From positions 1-64,000 of the forward strand of contig JBCBZT010000023.1 of assembly GCA_039815185.1 (NCBI GenBank): a stretch of DNA of 64,000 bases, written 5' to 3'. Made by a program: the position numbers. Shown here in pieces: positions 33,001 through 39,000 of this stretch. Positions within the stretch are counted from its first letter, which is position 1. Every line of letters begins with the position of its first letter. The DNA is from Cyanobacteria bacterium P01_A01_bin.123 (GTDB lineage Bacteria > Cyanobacteriota > Cyanobacteriia > Phormidesmidales > Phormidesmidaceae).

Positions 33001-36000
33001 TGTGCGATCGCTAAGCAACTACAGCAAATTTTTCCCTCATCAGATACTGTGGCTCGCTTGGGCGGAGATGAATTTGTCGTATTGTTACCCCAGATTAACC
33101 ACCCGCAAGCAGTTGCCCAAACCGCTCAGACGATTCTGACTGCGCTAGAGACGCCTTTGCAGGTTGATGGACACAGTATTTTCTTGGGAGGAAGTATTGG
33201 CATTAGTCTATTTCCTGCTCATGGGACGACCCCCGGTACGCTGATGAAACATGCTGATATCGCGATGTATCATGCGAAGGAACAGGGGCGTAATAACTAT
33301 CAATTTTATGATGCTAAATTATCGACTCGGCTACAGCGACGAATTGCCATTGAGCACGCCCTCCGCGATGCGATCGCTAATGATGAACTATCTTTGGTCT
33401 TCCATCCCCAGATTTGCTTAACCTCAGGCAATATCGAAGGCTTAGAAGCATTAGTTCGCTGGAAAAATTCAGCATTGGGCTCTATTCACCCAGATCAATT
33501 TATCCCAATTGCAGAAGAAAGCGGTTTAATTGAAGCATTGTCTGATTGGGTATTGGATCAGAGCTTGGACACAATTAAGCGACTTAGAAGAAGTCATCCC
33601 GAATTGTACGTTGCTGTTAATTTCTCGGCCCAAGAATTTTCTAGCGTCACCTCTTTTCTGAATCGAGTGATAACGACCCTAAGAAAACACCAACTCCCCG
33701 CTAGCGCTTTGGAACTAGAAATTACGGAAAGTGTTTTTTTGCAAGCAGAAGCGACGACTAAACAGCTTATGCAAGCCCTGAAAGCCGAAGGGATACGCAT
33801 CGCAATTGATGATTTTGGGACTGGATTCTCCTCACTCTCTTATTTAGTGAATCTGCCCCTTGATATCCTCAAAATCGATCGGTCATTTATCCATCGTCTT
33901 GGGCATGATCCTCGTAACGATGGTATTGTTCGCGGCACCATTGAAATTGCCAAGAGCCTTGGAATGGCTTGTGTAGCTGAGGGGGTTGAAACGCTGGAGC
34001 AACTATCACAGTTGCAACAGTTAGGATGTCAATGCTGTCAGGGGTTTTTGTTTAGCAAGCCCGTACCTGCTAGTGAACTCGACGCCCTGCTGCAACAAGA
34101 TCTCAATCCCCTAATGACGACATCCTAAGCCCTCTCTAAATGCGTTTTTCTCGTTTTGCTCAATGCTGGGTGTGCTTCGTTTTGTCACTGCTGTTGGTGA
34201 GCGGTTGTCATCGCTGTTTGAATCGCCCGGCTTCATCCCTTTCGGTGGTAGAACCGCCTATTGTGACTCCAGAAGTACTGGCTGGGCATACCCTGGTGCC
34301 CTTGGTTCAGCCAGGGCCTTGGCCCGATATCACAGGTTTGATTGGCTACGGCGATCGCCTCTGGTTTGCTAATAGTGTTGCTTTTGGCAATCATAATTCT
34401 GCAGATGTTTACAGCTACGCGCCAGCAACTGGGCAAACGCGCTACGAACGGCATCTTTTTAGTCAAAGTGTCGGCAAGCCAGCCGTGGCGGATGGATTGC
34501 TGTACTGGCCTTTTGAAGATCCTCGGTTTTCTGCTGACTTAGGCGAGTATATGGTTACTAACGGAGAAGACTGGCAATGGCGTCTCTTCCCTAATGGTGA
34601 AGCGTTTCACGTTCATACCATGGCTGCTCAAGGTGACTCGCTATTTGCAGGGACGGGTGCTTGGGCGGGTAGATTGCAGCGATCGCAAGATGGGGGGCAA
34701 ACCTGGCAAGTCATCTACGAGCACCCCACTCCAGACAGACAGGTTAGCCGTGTCACCCAACTAGCTGTGCTAGACGAGCAGCTGTATGTCGGCATCACTG
34801 CCCGCCAAGAAGCTGGTATCAAACTCCTGCGGTGGGATCAAGAGATGCTCCAAACGATTGACAGCTGGCCTAGGGGTAAACGTGTCAGTGATTTAACCAC
34901 CTATGATGGCTGGCTATACGGGATTAATCTGAATCCAGACGATAGCACTGCCATCTGGCGCACCCATGACCAGCAGACTGAACCAGTGGAAGCGTTAAAC
35001 GGTTATCCCATAAGGGCATTAGCTGCTGGTTCAGATGCTCTGTGGGCAGTGAGCAGCAATGAGGCAGGCGGATTTCTTTGGCATAGTTCAGATGGCGTAG
35101 CGTGGACTGCTGCCCAGCAGTTCCAGACATTGCGACCGCTGGATGTTGCCGTCTATGCTGGCAACGTCTACGTGGGGGCAAGGGATGAAGGTGGGCGCGG
35201 TGTTTTATTAGGGCCAACTGCTCCAGAGAGCGCTGGTGAAGCAACTTCGACACAAATGCCAACTATCCAGGCTGTATCCCCATCTCCCCAGCAGTTGCAA
35301 GCCATGCTGAATCAGCTAGATGAGGTGATGGCAAATCGCTCAAGCTACGCCAATGGCAACACCCAAGATGTGCTGTCTCAGACGTTAAAACCCCTTGCTA
35401 TCAGCAGTATGCCAGAGGTTGGCGAAGCCCTATCACAGCGTTTAGGCCACTCACCCCCGCAGGTGGATGCAACGCTATTCGACGATGTTGTTACAGAACC
35501 CGCGACAGATGTGCTGCAGTGGTACTTGCTTTGGGCGATCGCTCTGAATGGTCACGGTCAGATTCCAGTTGAGCTGCTGGCTATCCCTTGGACAACCCCC
35601 AGTAACTCTCGAGAAAAGTATTGGCAACCCGTTCCTGCTGCTGCTTGGGCCGTTGCTCAATTAGGTCAAGCCGATGTTGAGACCCTAGCCGCCTTAATCA
35701 ATCGCCTCAGCTTCAAAGATGATCCCATTTGGCTCAAAGGCGATTTTATTGGGGCCTTGAGTGCGTTAACGGGCGAACAATTTGGCTACGATCAGGGCGC
35801 CTGGCAAACCTGGTGGGCACAGCAAGCTAACGATTTCCTTAACGGGGTCTCAGCCTTAAGCTGATATGCACTAGATTTCGGAGTGGCTCAGGGGCAGTTG
35901 GATGAAGAATCTGGGTAATGGATTGAAAACCACTGGATGCATCCGGATAGACAAATGTTGATGCTTCTTGTTCGGCAACATACGCATAGATAGCCAGTTC

Positions 36001-39000
36001 TTCAAGCAAATATATGCATGATCGATTGACGTAATAGTCAAAACGTTGGGAATCTTGTTGAAGATACCTCTTAACAAAGACGTCAGCAAAGTTACGAACA
36101 GCAGTAGAAAAAGTTTTGTCAGCTTCAAATAGCCATCGTATCTCTTCAGCATAAGCTTGGAATTTCTCCTCAGCCAAGACATCAGAGAAGAATCGCATTT
36201 CGAAGCAACAGTGATCTGCATATCGATCAAAGATAGATAATTTCTCATCTCTGATTTTACGTCCAAAACTGATTGCACGATTTAAAGCATGCTGTTCTGA
36301 AAAACCTTGCATTTCTAAAACAATTTGATAGGCAAGATCACCGATTAAAACCTGGCAGTTGGAAAAATTCTGACTAATCCACTCAGTCATTCCTGCCAGC
36401 TTGGCCGTTGTAAAGTTCTTATCTTGCAAACTGAAGCCTAACATACAGGTCTCGTACTTTTGCAGTTGCCCCAAAGCCGATTCAGGCTTAACGGTAACGA
36501 CTTGGGCTTCATATCGAGCACTGGTTTTAATTTCAATATTTTGATGAGGTTTAGCCACACATCGGTAATCTTCAAAGCTCATGCGAATCCGCTGAGCTTG
36601 AGATTGAACACAGAAGGAAATTTCTTGAAAAATATGTAACTCTTGGGTGAAAAATACTTCTAAGTTAAACAGGCACCCCAACGGTGGTAAAGTACCTATT
36701 TCATAATCAGGAAACAACTTCTGAGTTTGGCCTTTGCCTACAAAATCGATGTTGGGATTATTGAGAGAAACCCGTAGCGAGTCTAACTCGATTTTACGCG
36801 TAACAGGCACCACAATCATCGCATATCGATTGGGAGCAGTGCAGATCAGGACTGCTTCAATTAGCTCATAACCTAGGGAAAACTCATCAACCGCAATATC
36901 TTGGAGCGTGTAAGCTGGTGAGTAGGAAACCGTGAGATATCGTATTTTCTGGCTATCTAACAAATCCTTGATAGGGTCAAGCGCATTTGTTTTAGAGAGT
37001 GCAAAAGCTGCCATAGGAAAGACTCTTTCGATTTAGATAGCTAGATAGAACGATTTGACTATCACACTAGTCCAATTTTTCCCATTCCAACGATGTAATT
37101 AACGATTCTATTCGAGGCACTGCCGACCGTCCCCGGAAATTTAGGATCAAACTGCTAAAAGTCTTAATCCTAAATTTCCTCTGCTCTGTTTAGTTTAACG
37201 ATGACCGTTATGCCCAGAAACCACTGCCTTGGTATGTCACGCCGGGGATAAACCAACTTTGAGGATTGACGTAGCGAAAGCGGATATCAACCTCGTCGAT
37301 CGCAGCTCGGGCTTTGGTTGAAAGGTCATGGGATGCAGCCACAAGATTTTGAGCGATGCGGTCTGGATTAGTTGATTTAGGAATAACACTTGTTCCCCGG
37401 TGAATCGCCCAGGCGATGAGGAGTTGTGCAGGCGTTAGCCCTTCGTCGCTGGCAACAGACTTGACCCGATCATTTTCTAGCACGGGGGGCTCGTCACTGG
37501 CTTTCATGCTGTCGGGGCGATCGCGAGAGCCCAGGGGTGAGTATGCCGTCAAGTGGATGCCTTGATCTTGGCAGTAGGCTAGCAGTTCGTTTTGGGGGTT
37601 GTAGGGATGCAGTTCCACTTGGTTGACAGCTGGAGTGGCGCCACTCTCTGTGATCAACTGATCGAGCTTTGAGATACTGAAATTAGAAACCCCGACACTT
37701 TTCACCAGTCCTTTGTCGCGGAGCTTCAGCATGGCCTCAAAGGTTTTGGATAAAGGCATGTCAGGTAAGGGCCAAAATCCTTCTGCATCCTCCGGCATGA
37801 CTAAGCCGGGACGAAAGGCGACGGGCCAATGCATGAGATACAAGTCGATATAGTCAAGACCGAAGGCGGTAAGCGTTGCCTGACAGCCCGCCTCAACATC
37901 ATCGGGGGCGTGGAAACTGTTCCAAAGTTTAGAGGTGACAAAGACGTCTTCGCGGGTGACGTTACCGTCTGCAATAGATTCGCAAATGGCGCGACCCACC
38001 TCTTTTTCGTTGCCATAGATCCAAGCGCCGTCGATATGGTGGTAACCAATGCGGAGGGCTTCTTTGACGGCTTGATAGGCGTCCCCTTCGTGGGACTTCC
38101 AGGTGCCGAGACCGAAAGCAGGAATTGTGTTGCCGTCATTGAGGGTAAATGTCTTCATGAGTCCTCTTTGAGATGTGTAGACTGTGGGCCAAATAATTGA
38201 GGAAATAGGCTCCAGTCCTCAATGCTTTCAAGCTCATTTAGCTTAACGTCTAGATTAGTTGCAGCTAGGGGCTGTCATCAATATTGCTTTTAGAACAATG
38301 GTTACAGTCCCCTAGCTCGTTGAGTTGGGTCGGGCATGGCAAGGCTCAACCATAGGGCTTTTCGGGTTGAGTTGATGACATGCCCTAGACGGTGGACAGG
38401 GGAATACCGTCAAATCGATTCAGGGCGACTAGTGTCAGACTGAGCAGTGGCACTATCATCCAAGGCGGTAAGCCTGCGCCCATGGGGATCAGGCATAGTG
38501 CGAAAAATGCCAAAAGCGATCGCGCGATGATGACCCCCTCAGGCAAACAATTTGGCGACGCCCATTGCAGTGCTGTGACGCCAGTCAGAAAAACGGCAAT
38601 TCCACCGCAGAGAATCGTGCGAGCTTCTGCAATGAAGCTATGTCCAGAGGCTGCCTCAATGGCAAACTGGATGCCAATACCCGTGGCGACAATGCCCATA
38701 AAGACGAGAACGTGGCTGTAGCCATAGATATAAGACCGCAGCAATGCCAACCGACCGCCTCGCAATGCCCAGTTGATCACCGATTCATCTGCCCGTTCAA
38801 AATACATCCACCACAGACTGACGGCGGTCAAAAAGCCGCCCATGCCAGTCAAGACACTTTGCCACTGCCAATTAGTTTGGGCCACGCCTGTGGTGACTGC
38901 AATAATGGCTTCCCCCAGCACGATAATCACAAACAAGCCAAATCGCTCGTCCATGTGGGATTTCTGGGTGGGGACGTTGCGAATGGTGAGGTAGGTGATG

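What a model noticed while it worked through the whole genome (the two positions that open the first line are those of the whole stretch)
35839..37014. YbaK-type aminoacyl-tRNA editing domain fused to a cyclodipeptide synthase
g06862 (391 aa, minus strand) has an N-terminal YbaK/ProX-type aminoacyl-tRNA trans-editing fold (about 10-155) fused to a complete XYP-type cyclodipeptide synthase (about 165-391). The CDPS catalytic set is intact, while the Lys that is catalytic in YbaK/ProX deacylases is Glu53 here, so the N-domain is more likely an aminoacyl-tRNA 3'-end binding or selecting module than a deacylase. The fusion defines a small, unreported CDPS subfamily.
Evidence so far: Pfam tRNA_edit 50-149 (4e-8) + CDPS 185-357 (1e-12), TIGR04539. 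About 20 full-length fused relatives among 1.8e9 representatives; 21-sequence alignment: S195, Y335, E339, Y356-P357 invariant. Profile vs PDB: 3op6 YbaK-like 9e-36, 2dxa ProX, 1dbu YbaK; 9j61 Streptomyces sapporonensis CDPS 3e-86. AF2 pLDDT 88, pTM 0.84; Foldseek 9j61 TM 0.9, 3op6 TM 0.83. The Lys column is E/D in 14 of 21, K in 4, S/N/R in 3. Full-length fusion in 1 of 401 sampled cyanobacterial genomes; 8 further fused genes in genome_contigs (Nostoc x3, Anabaena, Prochloraceae, Leptolyngbyaceae, Methylococcaceae, a proteobacterial MAG) without conserved neighbours. No paper on such a fusion; PMC5816076 (passages, calls 28, 2 [...]
(Added by a program. Inside this text positions count along the whole contig: contig position 1 is position 1 of the stretch shown here. 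"Call 12" and the like, gene names such as g00115 and contig names such as C1 are that model's own, and its searches are not shown. The text may have been shortened before it was handed on; [...] marks where a part breaks off. The agent that wrote the report below was given it as the finding of a first reader that could run no searches.)

Follow-up and report, generated by a model that had tools for sequence, protein, structure and literature searches.

The report
Cyclodipeptide synthase with dead editing domain
A cyanobacterial gene joins an enzyme that makes cyclic dipeptides from charged tRNAs to a tRNA-proofreading domain whose key lysine has become an acidic residue; the combination is rare, conserved and undescribed in the papers I could search, and the role of the extra domain is still open.

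Summary
Window 35839-37014 (-) is one intact 391-aa ORF with an N-terminal YbaK/INS-fold domain (closest solved relative 3op6) and a C-terminal XYP-type cyclodipeptide synthase (closest solved relative SsBcmA, 9j61). The CDPS catalytic residues S195, Y335, E339 and Y356-P357 are present. The INS-superfamily lysine is Glu53, while the GXXXP loop is kept.

New here:
- The Lys-to-acid change marks one clade of the fusion. All clearly free-standing relatives keep Lys.
- The N-domain is under purifying selection as strong as the CDPS domain.
- At least 18 more CDPS carry a degenerate version of the same domain without the loop. Some of them have the BcmA pocket signature.
- The window enzyme has an odd P2 pocket (Asp358 where 123 of 125 relatives have Gly), so its product cannot be predicted.
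The window copy is solitary, low in GC and probably acquired.

The charge reversal at the phosphate-binding position counts against the canonical binding mode.

This scan reported the same fusion before on other DNA (e1-2561457, e1-2561460). I found no paper describing it.

The parts
35839..37014 (-). Whole gene, 391 codons plus TAA stop; GC 0.413, GC3 0.371
   Evidence: ORF list, sequence. Its GC is the second lowest of 46 ORFs in the window (mean 0.509, sd 0.034).
36547..36987 (-). N-terminal YbaK/INS-fold domain, residues about 10-156 (3op6-like subfamily)
   Evidence: Pfam tRNA_edit; 3op6 6.2e-20 and 6.3e-38 with a profile; Foldseek 3op6_A TM 0.86.
36856..36858 (-). Codon GAA for Glu53, at the position of the conserved INS-superfamily lysine
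   Evidence: Aligned with the Lys of 3op6 and of E. coli YbaK 2dxa. The column is acidic in 17 of 24 fused sequences and Lys in 12 of 13 free-standing or tandem domains.
36682..36696 (-). G107-T-L-P-P111, the retained GXXXP loop
   Evidence: G107, P110 and P111 are invariant in A1. The loop aligns with the corresponding loops of 3op6 and YbaK.
36484..36519 (-). Residues 166-177, first strand of the CDPS domain (the region called beta2 in XYP CDPS), directly after the N-domain
   Evidence: The 9j61 alignment starts at residue 166. The AF2 model has strands 164-166 and 168-176, and pLDDT is about 89-90 across the junction. Beta2 and beta7 bind the acceptor-stem major groove in XYP CDPS (PMC7566563, passages). 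Equating this strand with beta2 is my inference.
35842..36519 (-). XYP-type cyclodipeptide synthase domain, residues 166-391
   Evidence: Pfam CDPS and TIGR04539; 9j61 1.7e-36; Foldseek TM 0.90-0.93.
36430..36432 (-). Ser195 (AlbC S37), the acyl-accepting serine
   Evidence: Invariant in A1; Ser in 120 of 125 relatives.
35998..36012 (-). Tyr335 to Glu339 (AlbC Y178, E182)
   Evidence: Invariant in A1; Y in 119 of 125 and E in 124 of 125 relatives.
35941..35949 (-). Tyr356-Pro357 (XYP signature) followed by Asp358 at P2 position 204
   Evidence: Y in 124 of 125 and P in 120 of 125 relatives. Position 204 is G in 123 of 125 and D only in the window protein and P0002.
35842..35862 (-). C-terminal basic strand, residues 385-391 (S-L-R-L-R-P-R), the beta7-like tRNA-binding strand
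   Evidence: Sequence. Compared with the L(R/K)FKK consensus quoted in PMC7566563.
37015..37207 (-). 193-nt spacer between the aldo/keto reductase gene and the fusion gene, holding a perfect hairpin (13-bp arms at 37135-37179)
   Evidence: Sequence, fold. The motif is unique in the window. No Rfam family matches and no consensus promoter is called in the spacer.

Best explanation
The gene encodes a self-contained two-domain enzyme.

C-terminal domain. It is a working XYP-class cyclodipeptide synthase. It takes two aminoacyl-tRNAs in a ping-pong reaction through Ser195 and releases a 2,5-diketopiperazine. The identity of the product cannot be read from the pockets.

N-terminal domain. It derives from a 3op6-like member of the YbaK/INS trans-editing superfamily. 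It no longer deacylates tRNA, because its lysine has been replaced by Glu53. Selection nevertheless maintains it, together with an intact GXXXP pocket.

Proposed role. I think the N-domain is most likely a non-hydrolytic accessory site, held rigidly next to the tRNA-binding strands of the synthase. It would bind the aminoacyl-adenosine end of a substrate in a non-canonical way, or bind a related small ligand, and so help choose or hold a substrate.

Shown and inferred. Shown: the architecture, the residue states, the selection and the distribution. Inferred: that the synthase is active, that the N-domain does not hydrolyse, and what the N-domain binds.

Origin. The gene was probably acquired horizontally and works here without dedicated partner genes.
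For: - Architecture and folds.
- CDPS catalytic residues are present. The basic C-terminal strand is kept (consensus from PMC7566563).
- Lysine is replaced by Glu53. PMC10164551 states that this Lys is strictly conserved in the INS superfamily, that Lys-to-Ala mutation impairs deacylation in all members tested, and that the Lys contacts the C75-A76 phosphate. PMC11286415 states that all characterised members use the Lys and the GXXXP loop.
- The acidic state is not random decay. The column reads E 13, D 4, K 4, S 1, R 1, Q 1 in 24 fused sequences, against K in 12 of 13 free-standing or tandem domains.
- In the N-domain tree all 19 non-Lys fused domains except P0024 (Arg) lie on one side of a branch (support 90/79), down to about 30-40% identity.
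- G107, P110 and P111 are invariant.
- N-domain dN/dS is 0.12-0.34, against 0.16-0.34 for the CDPS domain, in the pairs where dS is measurable.
- The junction is confidently modelled (pLDDT about 90, pTM 0.79).
- The gene occurs in three different genomic contexts, and the Nostocaceae partner genes were not found in this genome. This fits a self-contained module.
- Low GC and presence in 1 of 401 genomes of the phylum fit acquisition.
Against: - No biochemistry exists for any member.
- A Glu at the phosphate-contacting position should disfavour canonical CCA-end binding.
- At least 18 relatives have lost the GXXXP loop altogether. The pocket is therefore dispensable for at least some enzymes of the wider clade.
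- The window enzyme has Asp358 and Ser360 where SsBcmA has G208 and F210. G208A and F210A abolish SsBcmA activity, so the synthase could be inactive or could do something unusual. Only one relative (P0002) shares these residues.
- The closest pair, L005/L006, gives a C-domain dN/dS of 1.74, but on very few substitutions (dS 0.015).
- No RNA data are available.
Confidence: 0.4

Rival explanations
1. The N-domain is a regulatory ligand sensor. Its remodelled pocket would bind a small molecule, such as a free amino acid, a dipeptide or diketopiperazine, or a nucleoside, and so gate the synthase.
For: - Neighbouring branches of the same CDPS clade carry classical sensor domains. A C-terminal cNMP_binding domain occurs in 19 of the 68 proteins scanned, and a receiver-like domain in P0071.
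- An acidic residue in place of a phosphate-binding Lys suits a positively charged ligand (inference).
- Signalling genes lie next to relatives: PAS-GGDEF-EAL in L002 and L004, a hybrid kinase in L008.
Against: - I know of no precedent for a YbaK fold acting as a small-molecule sensor, and none turned up.
- The GGDEF-EAL gene near the window copy is only 37% identical to that of L002 and is of a very common type.
Confidence: 0.2
2. The N-domain is a structural remnant. It would be kept for folding, solubility or as a protein-protein interaction surface, with no ligand of its own.
For: - 18 relatives carry a degenerate version without the GXXXP loop (hhalign probability 97.3%, E 2.7e-11).
- The AF2 model of P0028 still matches 1dbu and 3op6, but at TM of only about 0.6.
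- Many close CDPS, including SsBcmA, have no such domain.
Against: In the window's clade the pocket motifs (acidic residue 53, G107, P110, P111) are conserved down to 30-40% identity. N-domain dN/dS is as low as in the catalytic domain. That is more constraint than a spacer needs.
Confidence: 0.2
3. The N-domain is still a deacylase with an altered mechanism. It would proofread wrong aminoacyl-tRNAs, or hydrolyse a stalled intermediate, for the synthase.
For: - The GXXXP loop is intact.
- Catalysis in this superfamily is described as relying on backbone atoms and the A76 2'-OH (PMC10164551), so a side-chain change need not remove chemistry altogether.
- 4 fused sequences (P0016, P0019, P0025, P0033) keep Lys.
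Against: - Lys-to-Ala impairs deacylation in every member tested, and here the charge is reversed.
- The His of the motif that reads N-A-G-S-H in most free-standing relatives survives in only 2 of 24 fused sequences (P0012, P0020; read).
- TIGR00011 scores 15.4 against a cut-off of 153.
Confidence: 0.08
4. The synthase half is itself inactive or repurposed, because of Asp358 and Ser360 in pocket P2. The protein would then be an aa-tRNA-binding protein without cyclodipeptide output.
For: - Position 204 is Gly in 123 of 125 relatives, and position 206 is Ser only in the window protein and P0002.
- G208A and F210A abolish SsBcmA activity.
- Gondry et al. note that many cyanobacterial XYP CDPS were inactive in E. 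coli (PMC5816076, passage).
Against: - All catalytic residues are kept.
- The same P2 motif is conserved in P0002 at 62% identity over the CDPS domain, which suggests a remodelled pocket that is still selected.
Confidence: 0.1

Closest known systems
BcmA-type XYP cyclodipeptide synthases (SsBcmA, PDB 9J61; cyclo(L-Ile-L-Leu) synthase of bicyclomycin biosynthesis; PMC11580168)
   Same: - Closest solved structure: 1.7e-36 by sequence, TM 0.90-0.93.
- Same catalytic Ser, Tyr, Glu and Tyr-Pro residues, and a basic C-terminal strand.
   Different: - SsBcmA is a single-domain protein of 249 residues.
- The window enzyme has P1 M-G-L-G-F-I-Y-F and P2 F-V-F-R-D-S-S. The BcmA group has F-G-L-G-C-[VI]-F-[MF] and F-x-Y-x-G-F-S.
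- No bcm-type oxygenase genes lie next to the window gene.
lpg1207 of Legionella pneumophila (PDB 3OP6), an uncharacterised YbaK-like 'oligo-nucleotide binding protein'
   Same: Closest solved relative of the N-domain (6.3e-38 with a profile, TM 0.86). It shares the G-x-x-P-P-x-G form of the loop.
   Different: 3op6 is free-standing and keeps the Lys. It also keeps the motif printed as N-A-G-S-H. The window domain has Glu53 and V-Q-S-Q-A at those positions.
YbaK / ProXp-ala / ProRS INS trans-editing superfamily
   Same: The fold, the Pfam family PF04073 and the GXXXP loop.
   Different: - The strictly conserved Lys is missing.
- TIGR00011 (YbaK_EbsC) scores 15.4 bits against a cut-off of 153.
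- The genome has its own classical YbaK, a 158-aa protein with the Lys, elsewhere on contig C71.
Known multi-domain CDPS (C-terminal P450, methyltransferase or 'ABC-transporter' domains in NYH CDPS; Gondry et al. 2018, PMC5816076)
   Same: A CDPS working inside a larger polypeptide.
   Different: - The described fusions are C-terminal, and the text names them in the NYH subfamily.
- The window fusion is N-terminal, in the XYP subfamily, and uses a domain from tRNA quality control.
- The paper's table lists one Nostoc CDPS with similar pockets, but says nothing about extra length.
Editing domains fused to aminoacyl-tRNA synthetases (ProRS INS; the ProXp-ala-ProRS fusions of protozoa and fungi, PMC11286415)
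   Same: An INS-family domain joined covalently to an enzyme whose substrate or product is aminoacyl-tRNA.
   Different: In those fusions the domain is an active deacylase that corrects the partner's errors. Here the partner consumes aa-tRNA and the domain lacks the Lys.

Membership tests
Cyclodipeptide synthase family (PF16715 / TIGR04539) | Profile match above the curated cut-off | tested here: met
   PF16715 47.2 bits (cut-off 27). TIGR04539 81.5 bits (cut-off 45).
Cyclodipeptide synthase family (PF16715 / TIGR04539) | Rossmann-like CDPS fold | tested here: met
   AF2 model against 9j61: TM(target) 0.90-0.93, rmsd 1.9-2.3.
Cyclodipeptide synthase family (PF16715 / TIGR04539) | Catalytic residues S37, Y178, E182, Y202 (AlbC numbering; named in PMC11580168) | tested here: met
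   S195, Y335, E339, Y356.
Cyclodipeptide synthase family (PF16715 / TIGR04539) | Forms a cyclodipeptide from two aminoacyl-tRNAs | not testable with these tools
   Needs expression and LC-MS.
XYP subfamily of CDPS | Pro at AlbC position 203 and a non-conserved residue at position 40 (definition in PMC11580168) | tested here: met
   P357; position 40 is D198.
XYP subfamily of CDPS | Long basic beta2 and beta7 strands (K-phi-X-F and L(R/K)FKK consensus, PMC7566563) | tested here: inconclusive
   The C-terminus S-L-R-L-R-P-R is basic and resembles the beta7 consensus. The first strand (166-177) has R167 and K176 but no clear K-phi-X-F. Read from sequence only.
cLI/cLL (BcmA) specificity group of Gondry et al. 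2018 | P1 F-G-L-G-C-[VI]-F-[MF] and P2 F-x-[YF]-x-G-F-[SG] | tested here: not met
   Window P1 is M-G-L-G-F-I-Y-F and P2 is F-V-F-R-D-S-S. The mapping was validated on BcmA-like relatives, which reproduce the published motifs.
YbaK/INS trans-editing superfamily (PF04073) | Profile match and fold | tested here: met
   PF04073 32.7 bits (cut-off 25.5). Foldseek 3op6 TM 0.86, 1dbu 0.76, 2dxa 0.69.
YbaK/INS trans-editing superfamily (PF04073) | Strictly conserved lysine (Cc ProXp-ala K45; PMC10164551) | tested here: not met
   Glu53 aligns with the Lys of 3op6 and of E. coli YbaK.
YbaK/INS trans-editing superfamily (PF04073) | GXXXP loop (PMC11286415) | tested here: met
   G107-T-L-P-P111, invariant G107, P110 and P111.
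YbaK/INS trans-editing superfamily (PF04073) | Hydrolysis of a mischarged tRNA | not testable with these tools
   Needs deacylation assays.
Cys-tRNA(Pro) deacylase YbaK proper (TIGR00011 equivalog) | Score above the equivalog cut-off | tested here: not met
   15.4 bits against 153.25.

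The most novel reading that the evidence does not exclude
The YbaK-derived domain has been turned from a hydrolase into a second, non-destructive docking site for an aminoacyl-tRNA end or for an amino-acid-like signal. The protein would then be a gated two-site machine that couples cyclic-dipeptide output to the charging state of particular tRNAs. 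It would be portable enough to serve as the output gene of NLR-like conflict cassettes in Nostocaceae, of a peptide-transporter/c-di-GMP operon in methanotrophs, and as a solitary acquired gene here. That would be the first case of a dead tRNA-editing domain recruited into tRNA-dependent natural-product or signal synthesis.
Probability: 0.17. Interest if true: 0.85.

Novelty: new variant of a known kind. Interest (0 to 1): 0.62.

Why it matters
Cyclodipeptide synthases divert charged tRNAs from translation. How they pick their second substrate and compete with EF-Tu is still unclear.

This family offers a natural fusion to a domain whose only known job is to grip the aminoacyl end of tRNA. The one residue needed for hydrolysis and phosphate binding has been changed consistently to an acid. 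That makes a clean experimental handle, through full-length, N-domain-deleted and E53K constructs.

The family also shows a graded series, from Lys-bearing fused forms through acid-bearing ones to degenerate ones. That series documents how an editing enzyme becomes a pseudo-enzyme.

For genome mining, the fusion and its odd P2 pocket mark enzymes whose products current pocket rules cannot predict.

Tried and rejected
1. Complex prediction, CDPS half against N-domain half as separate chains: no verdict. Median score 0.43, but one control scored 0.35. I draw nothing from it.
2. The look-up of sequencing runs: no RNA holder listed, so there are no expression data.
3. Empty-site test for horizontal acquisition. 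The only relative with a homologue of the 574-aa neighbour (G403, 55% identity) shares no other gene of the region, so no insertion site could be compared.
4. Net charge and pI of N-domains. Fused and free-standing domains are similarly acidic, so this does not discriminate.
5. Rfam scan of 35000-38500: only two sub-threshold chance hits, no leader RNA.
6. Promoter and terminator scan: no consensus promoter in the 5' spacer.
7. CDPS 99 of Lyngbya confervoides, reported inactive in Gondry et al. I checked whether it was a member of this family. Its sequence and pockets are unrelated.
8. GGDEF-EAL as a shared neighbour of the window copy and of L002/L004. Identity is only 37% and the architecture is very common, so I rejected it as evidence.
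9. Adjacent free-standing YbaK-like genes next to CDPS-only genes in three cyanobacterial loci (L014, L015, L017): none within about 1.5 kb.
10. A recent duplication of the host's own ybaK is rejected. The host YbaK is of the classical type, not 3op6-like.
11. Single against multiple fusion events. The N-domain of P0016 nests among free-standing domains (98/98), but the AU test does not reject one clade of all fused domains (p 0.244). This stays undecided.

Full report
**1. The observation**

Window 35839-37014 (-) is a single 391-codon ORF with an ATG start and no internal stop (sequence).

Domain and family matches:
- Pfam finds CDPS (residues 185-357, 3e-12, 47.2 bits, cut-off 27) and tRNA_edit (50-149, 9e-8, 32.7 bits, cut-off 25.5).
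- NCBIfam finds TIGR04539 (6.1e-23, 81.5 bits, cut-off 45). TIGR00011 (YbaK_EbsC) reaches only 15.4 bits against a cut-off of 153.
- By sequence, the closest solved structures are 9j61 (1.7e-36, residues 166-391) and 3op6 (6.2e-20, residues 14-156).
- A 9-sequence N-domain profile (A2) gives 3op6 at 6.3e-38 and E. coli YbaK 2dxa at 0.0046.

Structure:
- AlphaFold2 on an 8-sequence alignment gives pLDDT 85.4 and pTM 0.79, with pLDDT of about 89-90 across the domain junction.
- Foldseek returns 9j61 (TM of target 0.90-0.93), 3op6_A (0.86), 1dbu (0.76) and 2dxa (0.69).

Independence from assembly: the identical protein is on 3 contigs, and two more 391-aa members sit in its 90% cluster. The fusion is real and not an assembly accident.

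Host: the genome is 8.09 Mb in 133 contigs. It has 28 phycobilisome-family matches, and that family rings only in Synechococcus among the 14 control genomes. The host is therefore a cyanobacterium.

**2. Residue states**

N-domain:
- In the printed alignments, Glu53 falls on the Lys of 3op6 and on the Lys of E. coli YbaK.
- The G107-T-L-P-P111 loop aligns with the GXXXP loops of both. G107, P110 and P111 are invariant in the 8-sequence alignment.

Literature on these two features:
[quoted passage not shown] Lys-to-Ala impairs deacylation in all members tested. The Lys is thought to direct A76 into the site through the C75-A76 phosphate.
- From passages of PMC11286415: all characterised members use the Lys and the GXXXP loop.

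CDPS half:
- S195, Y335, E339, Y356 and P357 correspond to AlbC S37, Y178, E182, Y202 and P203. PMC11580168 names these positions.

**3. How large the family is**

A profile of the 8 close homologues was run against 1.84e9 representatives. It gave 4044 hits at E up to 0.001 and 151 at E up to 1e-30, and the best 150 were listed.

I built separate HMMs of the N half and the C half and ran them over all 156 proteins then held. Results:
- 16 full-length representatives carry an intact-type N-domain plus a CDPS domain.
- P0020 and P0035 are clear fragments of the same architecture.
- Together with 6 closer members, this gives 24 fused sequences.

A further 23 CDPS had N-terminal extensions with no Pfam match.
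- I aligned 18 of these (extensions of about 85-157 aa).
- I left out 5 (P0046, P0093, P0102, P0105, P0115), whose extensions were short or looked unrelated.
- hhalign of the 18 against the N-domain alignment gives probability 97.3% and E 2.7e-11 over 123 columns. The stretch holding the GXXXP loop is deleted in them.
- As a fold check I modelled P0028, which had no HMM match to the N-domain (pLDDT 87.2, pTM 0.80). Foldseek returns 9j61 (46% identity, TM 0.93-0.95) and also 1dbu (E 3.2e-6, TM 0.58) and 3op6 (E 5.1e-6, TM 0.61).

The YbaK-derived N-domain therefore exists in a degenerate form on at least 18 more CDPS. Several of them have exactly the published BcmA pocket motifs.

**4. The lysine column and its history**

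Lysine column, read:

| Set | n | E | D | K | S | R | Q |
|---|---|---|---|---|---|---|---|
| All fused sequences | 24 | 13 | 4 | 4 | 1 | 1 | 1 |
| Fused, 50% representatives only | 18 | 9 | 2 | 4 | 1 | 1 | 1 |
| Free-standing or tandem domains | 13 | 1 | 0 | 12 | 0 | 0 | 0 |

- The four fused sequences with Lys are P0016, P0019, P0025 and P0033.
- The 13 free-standing or tandem domains come from 8 proteins.
- The single Glu among them is P0097, a 141-aa record that nests inside the fused clade and is probably a fragment of a fusion.

N-domain tree (37 rows, IQ-TREE careful):
- One branch (support 90/79) separates 19 fused domains plus P0097 from the 12 free-standing domains and the five fused ones that carry Lys or Arg. 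The 19 fused domains carry E, D, S or Q, and P0097 carries E.
- P0016 nests among free-standing domains (98/98).
- An AU test does not reject a single clade of all fused domains (p 0.244). One or several fusion events remain possible.

CDPS-domain tree (125 rows, quick search, LG+G4):
- The window protein lies in a clade of 18 rows with SH-aLRT support 94.
- That clade holds 16 fused rows plus P0017 and P0018. These two are 247-248 aa, and their matches start inside the N-domain part of the profile, so they are probably truncated records.
- The remaining fused, degenerate, cNMP-fused and plain CDPS interleave on poorly supported backbone branches.

A second motif, printed as N-A-G-S-H in most free-standing relatives, keeps its His in only 2 of 24 fused sequences (P0012, P0020; read). 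I could not verify whether this His equals ProXp-ala H130.

**5. Selection**

Nei-Gojobori estimates were computed on the window gene and the 8 genomic relatives.

| Pair | N-domain dN/dS | CDPS-domain dN/dS |
|---|---|---|
| L003/L005 | 0.33 | 0.34 |
| L003/L007 | 0.34 | 0.34 |
| L005/L007 | 0.32 | 0.25 |
| L001/L002 | 0.13 | 0.16 |
| L001/L004 | 0.12 | not computable (dS saturated) |

- The near-identical pair L005/L006 gives 0.34 for the N-domain and 1.74 for the CDPS domain. That rests on a dS of 0.015-0.06, so it is noise.
- Comparisons with the window gene are saturated.
- Within its clade, the N-domain is as constrained as the catalytic domain.

**6. Substrate pockets**

I used the AlbC positions given in PMC5816076. 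I checked that the BcmA-like relatives reproduce the published motifs of the cLI/cLL group (supplementary file 4).

- The window enzyme reads P1 M-G-L-G-F-I-Y-F and P2 F-V-F-R-D-S-S.
- Position 204 is Gly in 123 of 125 relatives and Asp only in the window protein and P0002. Position 206 is Ser only in these two.
- In SsBcmA, G208A and F210A at these positions abolish activity. F158, F210 and S211 set selectivity (PMC11580168, passages).
- The enzyme is therefore not a member of the BcmA specificity group. Its product cannot be predicted, and an inactive or unusual synthase cannot be excluded.
- The Nostocaceae relatives read F-G-L-G-C-[VI]-F-M and S-E-F-R-G-L-[DK]. This is close to the Nostoc sp. 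NIES-3756 entry of the 2018 survey, F-G-L-G-C-V-F-M and Y-E-F-N-G-L-P.
- That entry may be a family member. The text of the survey mentions only C-terminal fusions, in the NYH subfamily, and the supplements I searched do not hold its sequence.

**7. Context**

In the window:
- The gene is convergent with a 574-aa ORF that has no Pfam match.
- Upstream on the same strand lie an aldo/keto reductase and an LtrA-family gene.
- A 193-nt spacer with a perfect hairpin separates the reductase gene from the fusion gene.
- No tailoring enzyme typical of diketopiperazine clusters is adjacent.
- The gene's GC (0.413) and GC3 (0.371) are about 2.8 sd below the mean of 46 ORFs.
- It is the only CDPS in the genome.
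- The host's own YbaK is a classical 158-aa protein on another contig.
- Among 401 genomes of the phylum, only the window's genome has the full-length fusion. Two other genomes have CDPS-only matches, and one has a weak match to the N-domain alone.
- Together these points suggest horizontal acquisition. That is an inference, and no empty site could be found.

In relatives. I sent 54 of 89 called ORFs to Pfam. I left out L006, which is nearly identical to L005, and the distal ORFs.
- All 4 Nostocaceae loci share a cassette: a Metallophos-SIR2_2 protein (PADLOC candidate PDC-S60, about 1e-39 to 1e-41), a WD40 protein of 1185-1312 aa with weak N-terminal ATPase matches, the fusion 73-113 nt downstream, and a protein of about 170 aa. 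Pairwise identities are 54-97%, while the outer flanks differ.
- L002 and L004 share the order SBP_bac_5, PAS-GGDEF-EAL, fusion, two BPD_transp_1 permeases. L002 continues with a seryl-tRNA synthetase gene. L001 has a permease downstream.
- L008 lies between a hybrid histidine kinase gene and a sodium:alanine symporter gene.
- The Nostocaceae partners were not found in the window's genome: no match for the Metallophos-SIR2 protein, and only a 36-residue match at E 6e-4 for the 170-aa protein.
- All four Nostocaceae loci come from one family, so shared ancestry may explain part of that synteny.

**8. Mechanism**

Shown: an intact XYP CDPS catalytic set; a YbaK fold with the loop kept, the lysine replaced by an acid and held so across a deep clade; equal constraint on both domains; a confidently modelled rigid junction.

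From the literature: XYP CDPS bind the acceptor-stem major groove with strands beta2 and beta7 (PMC7566563, passages).

My reading of the geometry:
- The N-domain is attached directly to the first CDPS strand (residues 166-177).
- The basic C-terminal strand S-L-R-L-R-P-R is kept.
- The extra domain should therefore sit near the bound acceptor end. This is an inference, because I could not see coordinates.

My best reading (confidence 0.4) is a non-hydrolytic accessory site for the aminoacyl end of a substrate or for a related ligand.

- A Glu at the phosphate-contacting position should repel the phosphate.
- Relatives that have lost the loop presumably still work as synthases.

Rivals:
- Small-ligand sensor (0.2). 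This is favoured by the cNMP-binding and receiver-domain fusions on neighbouring branches.
- Structural remnant (0.2).
- Altered but still active deacylase (0.08).
- Inactive or repurposed synthase (0.1).

**9. Novelty**

Searches of the held library:
- 'cyclodipeptide synthase' with 'YbaK'.
- With 'fused' and 'editing domain'.
- With 'trans-editing'.
- With cyanobacteria, domain and N-terminal terms.
- With editing, deacylase, ProX and Pfam terms.
- With 'domain architecture' and 'fusion'.

None of these found a description of this fusion. The papers that held both words mention them in unrelated contexts, judged from the listings and from the passages of PMC9437257. A 2022 review has no relevant passage (PMC11610984). 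Public records name these proteins simply 'tRNA-dependent cyclodipeptide synthase'.

Limits: subscription papers and bioRxiv supplements were not searchable.

Earlier reports of this scan describe the same fusion in other cyanobacterial genomes and the NLR-like cassette (e1-2561457, e1-2561460). Within the scan, this is therefore a further, differently placed member.

I rate it a new variant of a known kind, with interest 0.62.

Noticed in passing
proteins P0055, P0058, P0063, P0079, P0082, P0084, P0086, P0089-P0092, P0094, P0100, P0104, P0113, P0114, P0116, P0125, P0134: 19 representatives of a neighbouring CDPS clade carry a C-terminal cyclic-nucleotide-binding domain (PF00027). They form most of a 28-row clade (SH-aLRT 97). 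No paper in the library holds both 'cyclodipeptide synthase' and 'cyclic nucleotide-binding domain'.
   Followed up: partly
proteins P0071 (697 aa) and P0076 (713 aa): Long proteins with the CDPS domain at the C-terminus. P0071 has a weak N-terminal receiver-domain match (5e-5, below the cut-off). In P0076 the full-length profile aligned from position 19, so it may contain a divergent YbaK-like part.
   Followed up: no
proteins P0059 (491 aa), P0080 (448 aa), P0109 (303 aa): Proteins made of three (P0059, P0080) or two (P0109) tandem 3op6-like tRNA_edit domains. All domains keep the lysine.
   Followed up: no
L003 2275-11977, L005 1948-11816, L006 1533-11406, L007 3196-11149: Nostocaceae cassette: Metallophos-SIR2_2 protein (PADLOC PDC-S60), large WD40 protein with weak ATPase matches, YbaK-CDPS fusion, and a protein of about 170 aa. 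It is conserved in 4 of 4 loci while the outer flanks differ.
   Followed up: partly
L002 3208-12492 and L004 4257-12176: In two methanotroph-type MAGs the fusion gene sits inside a peptide-type ABC transporter operon (SBP_bac_5, then PAS-GGDEF-EAL, then the fusion, then two permeases). L002 continues with a seryl-tRNA synthetase gene 113 nt downstream.
   Followed up: no
window 46290-46898 (-): A 202-aa 2OG-Fe(II) oxygenase ORF has the lowest GC of the window (0.401, GC3 0.371). This is the same anomaly as in the fusion gene 9 kb away.
   Followed up: no
window 37135-37179: Perfect 13-bp inverted repeat (hairpin) just after the aldo/keto reductase stop codon. It has no U-tract and is unique in the window.
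   Followed up: partly
window 34140-35864 (+) and 26458-28857 (+): Two long ORFs (574 and 799 aa) with no Pfam or PADLOC match. The 574-aa protein has a 55% identical homologue in one genome of the same family.
   Followed up: no
L014 1480-2355 (-) and protein P0046: Some plain CDPS of this clade carry a short N-terminal extension of about 45-55 aa with a shared motif (W-x-Q-L-x-L-E-Q-L). It is unrelated to the YbaK domain.
   Followed up: no
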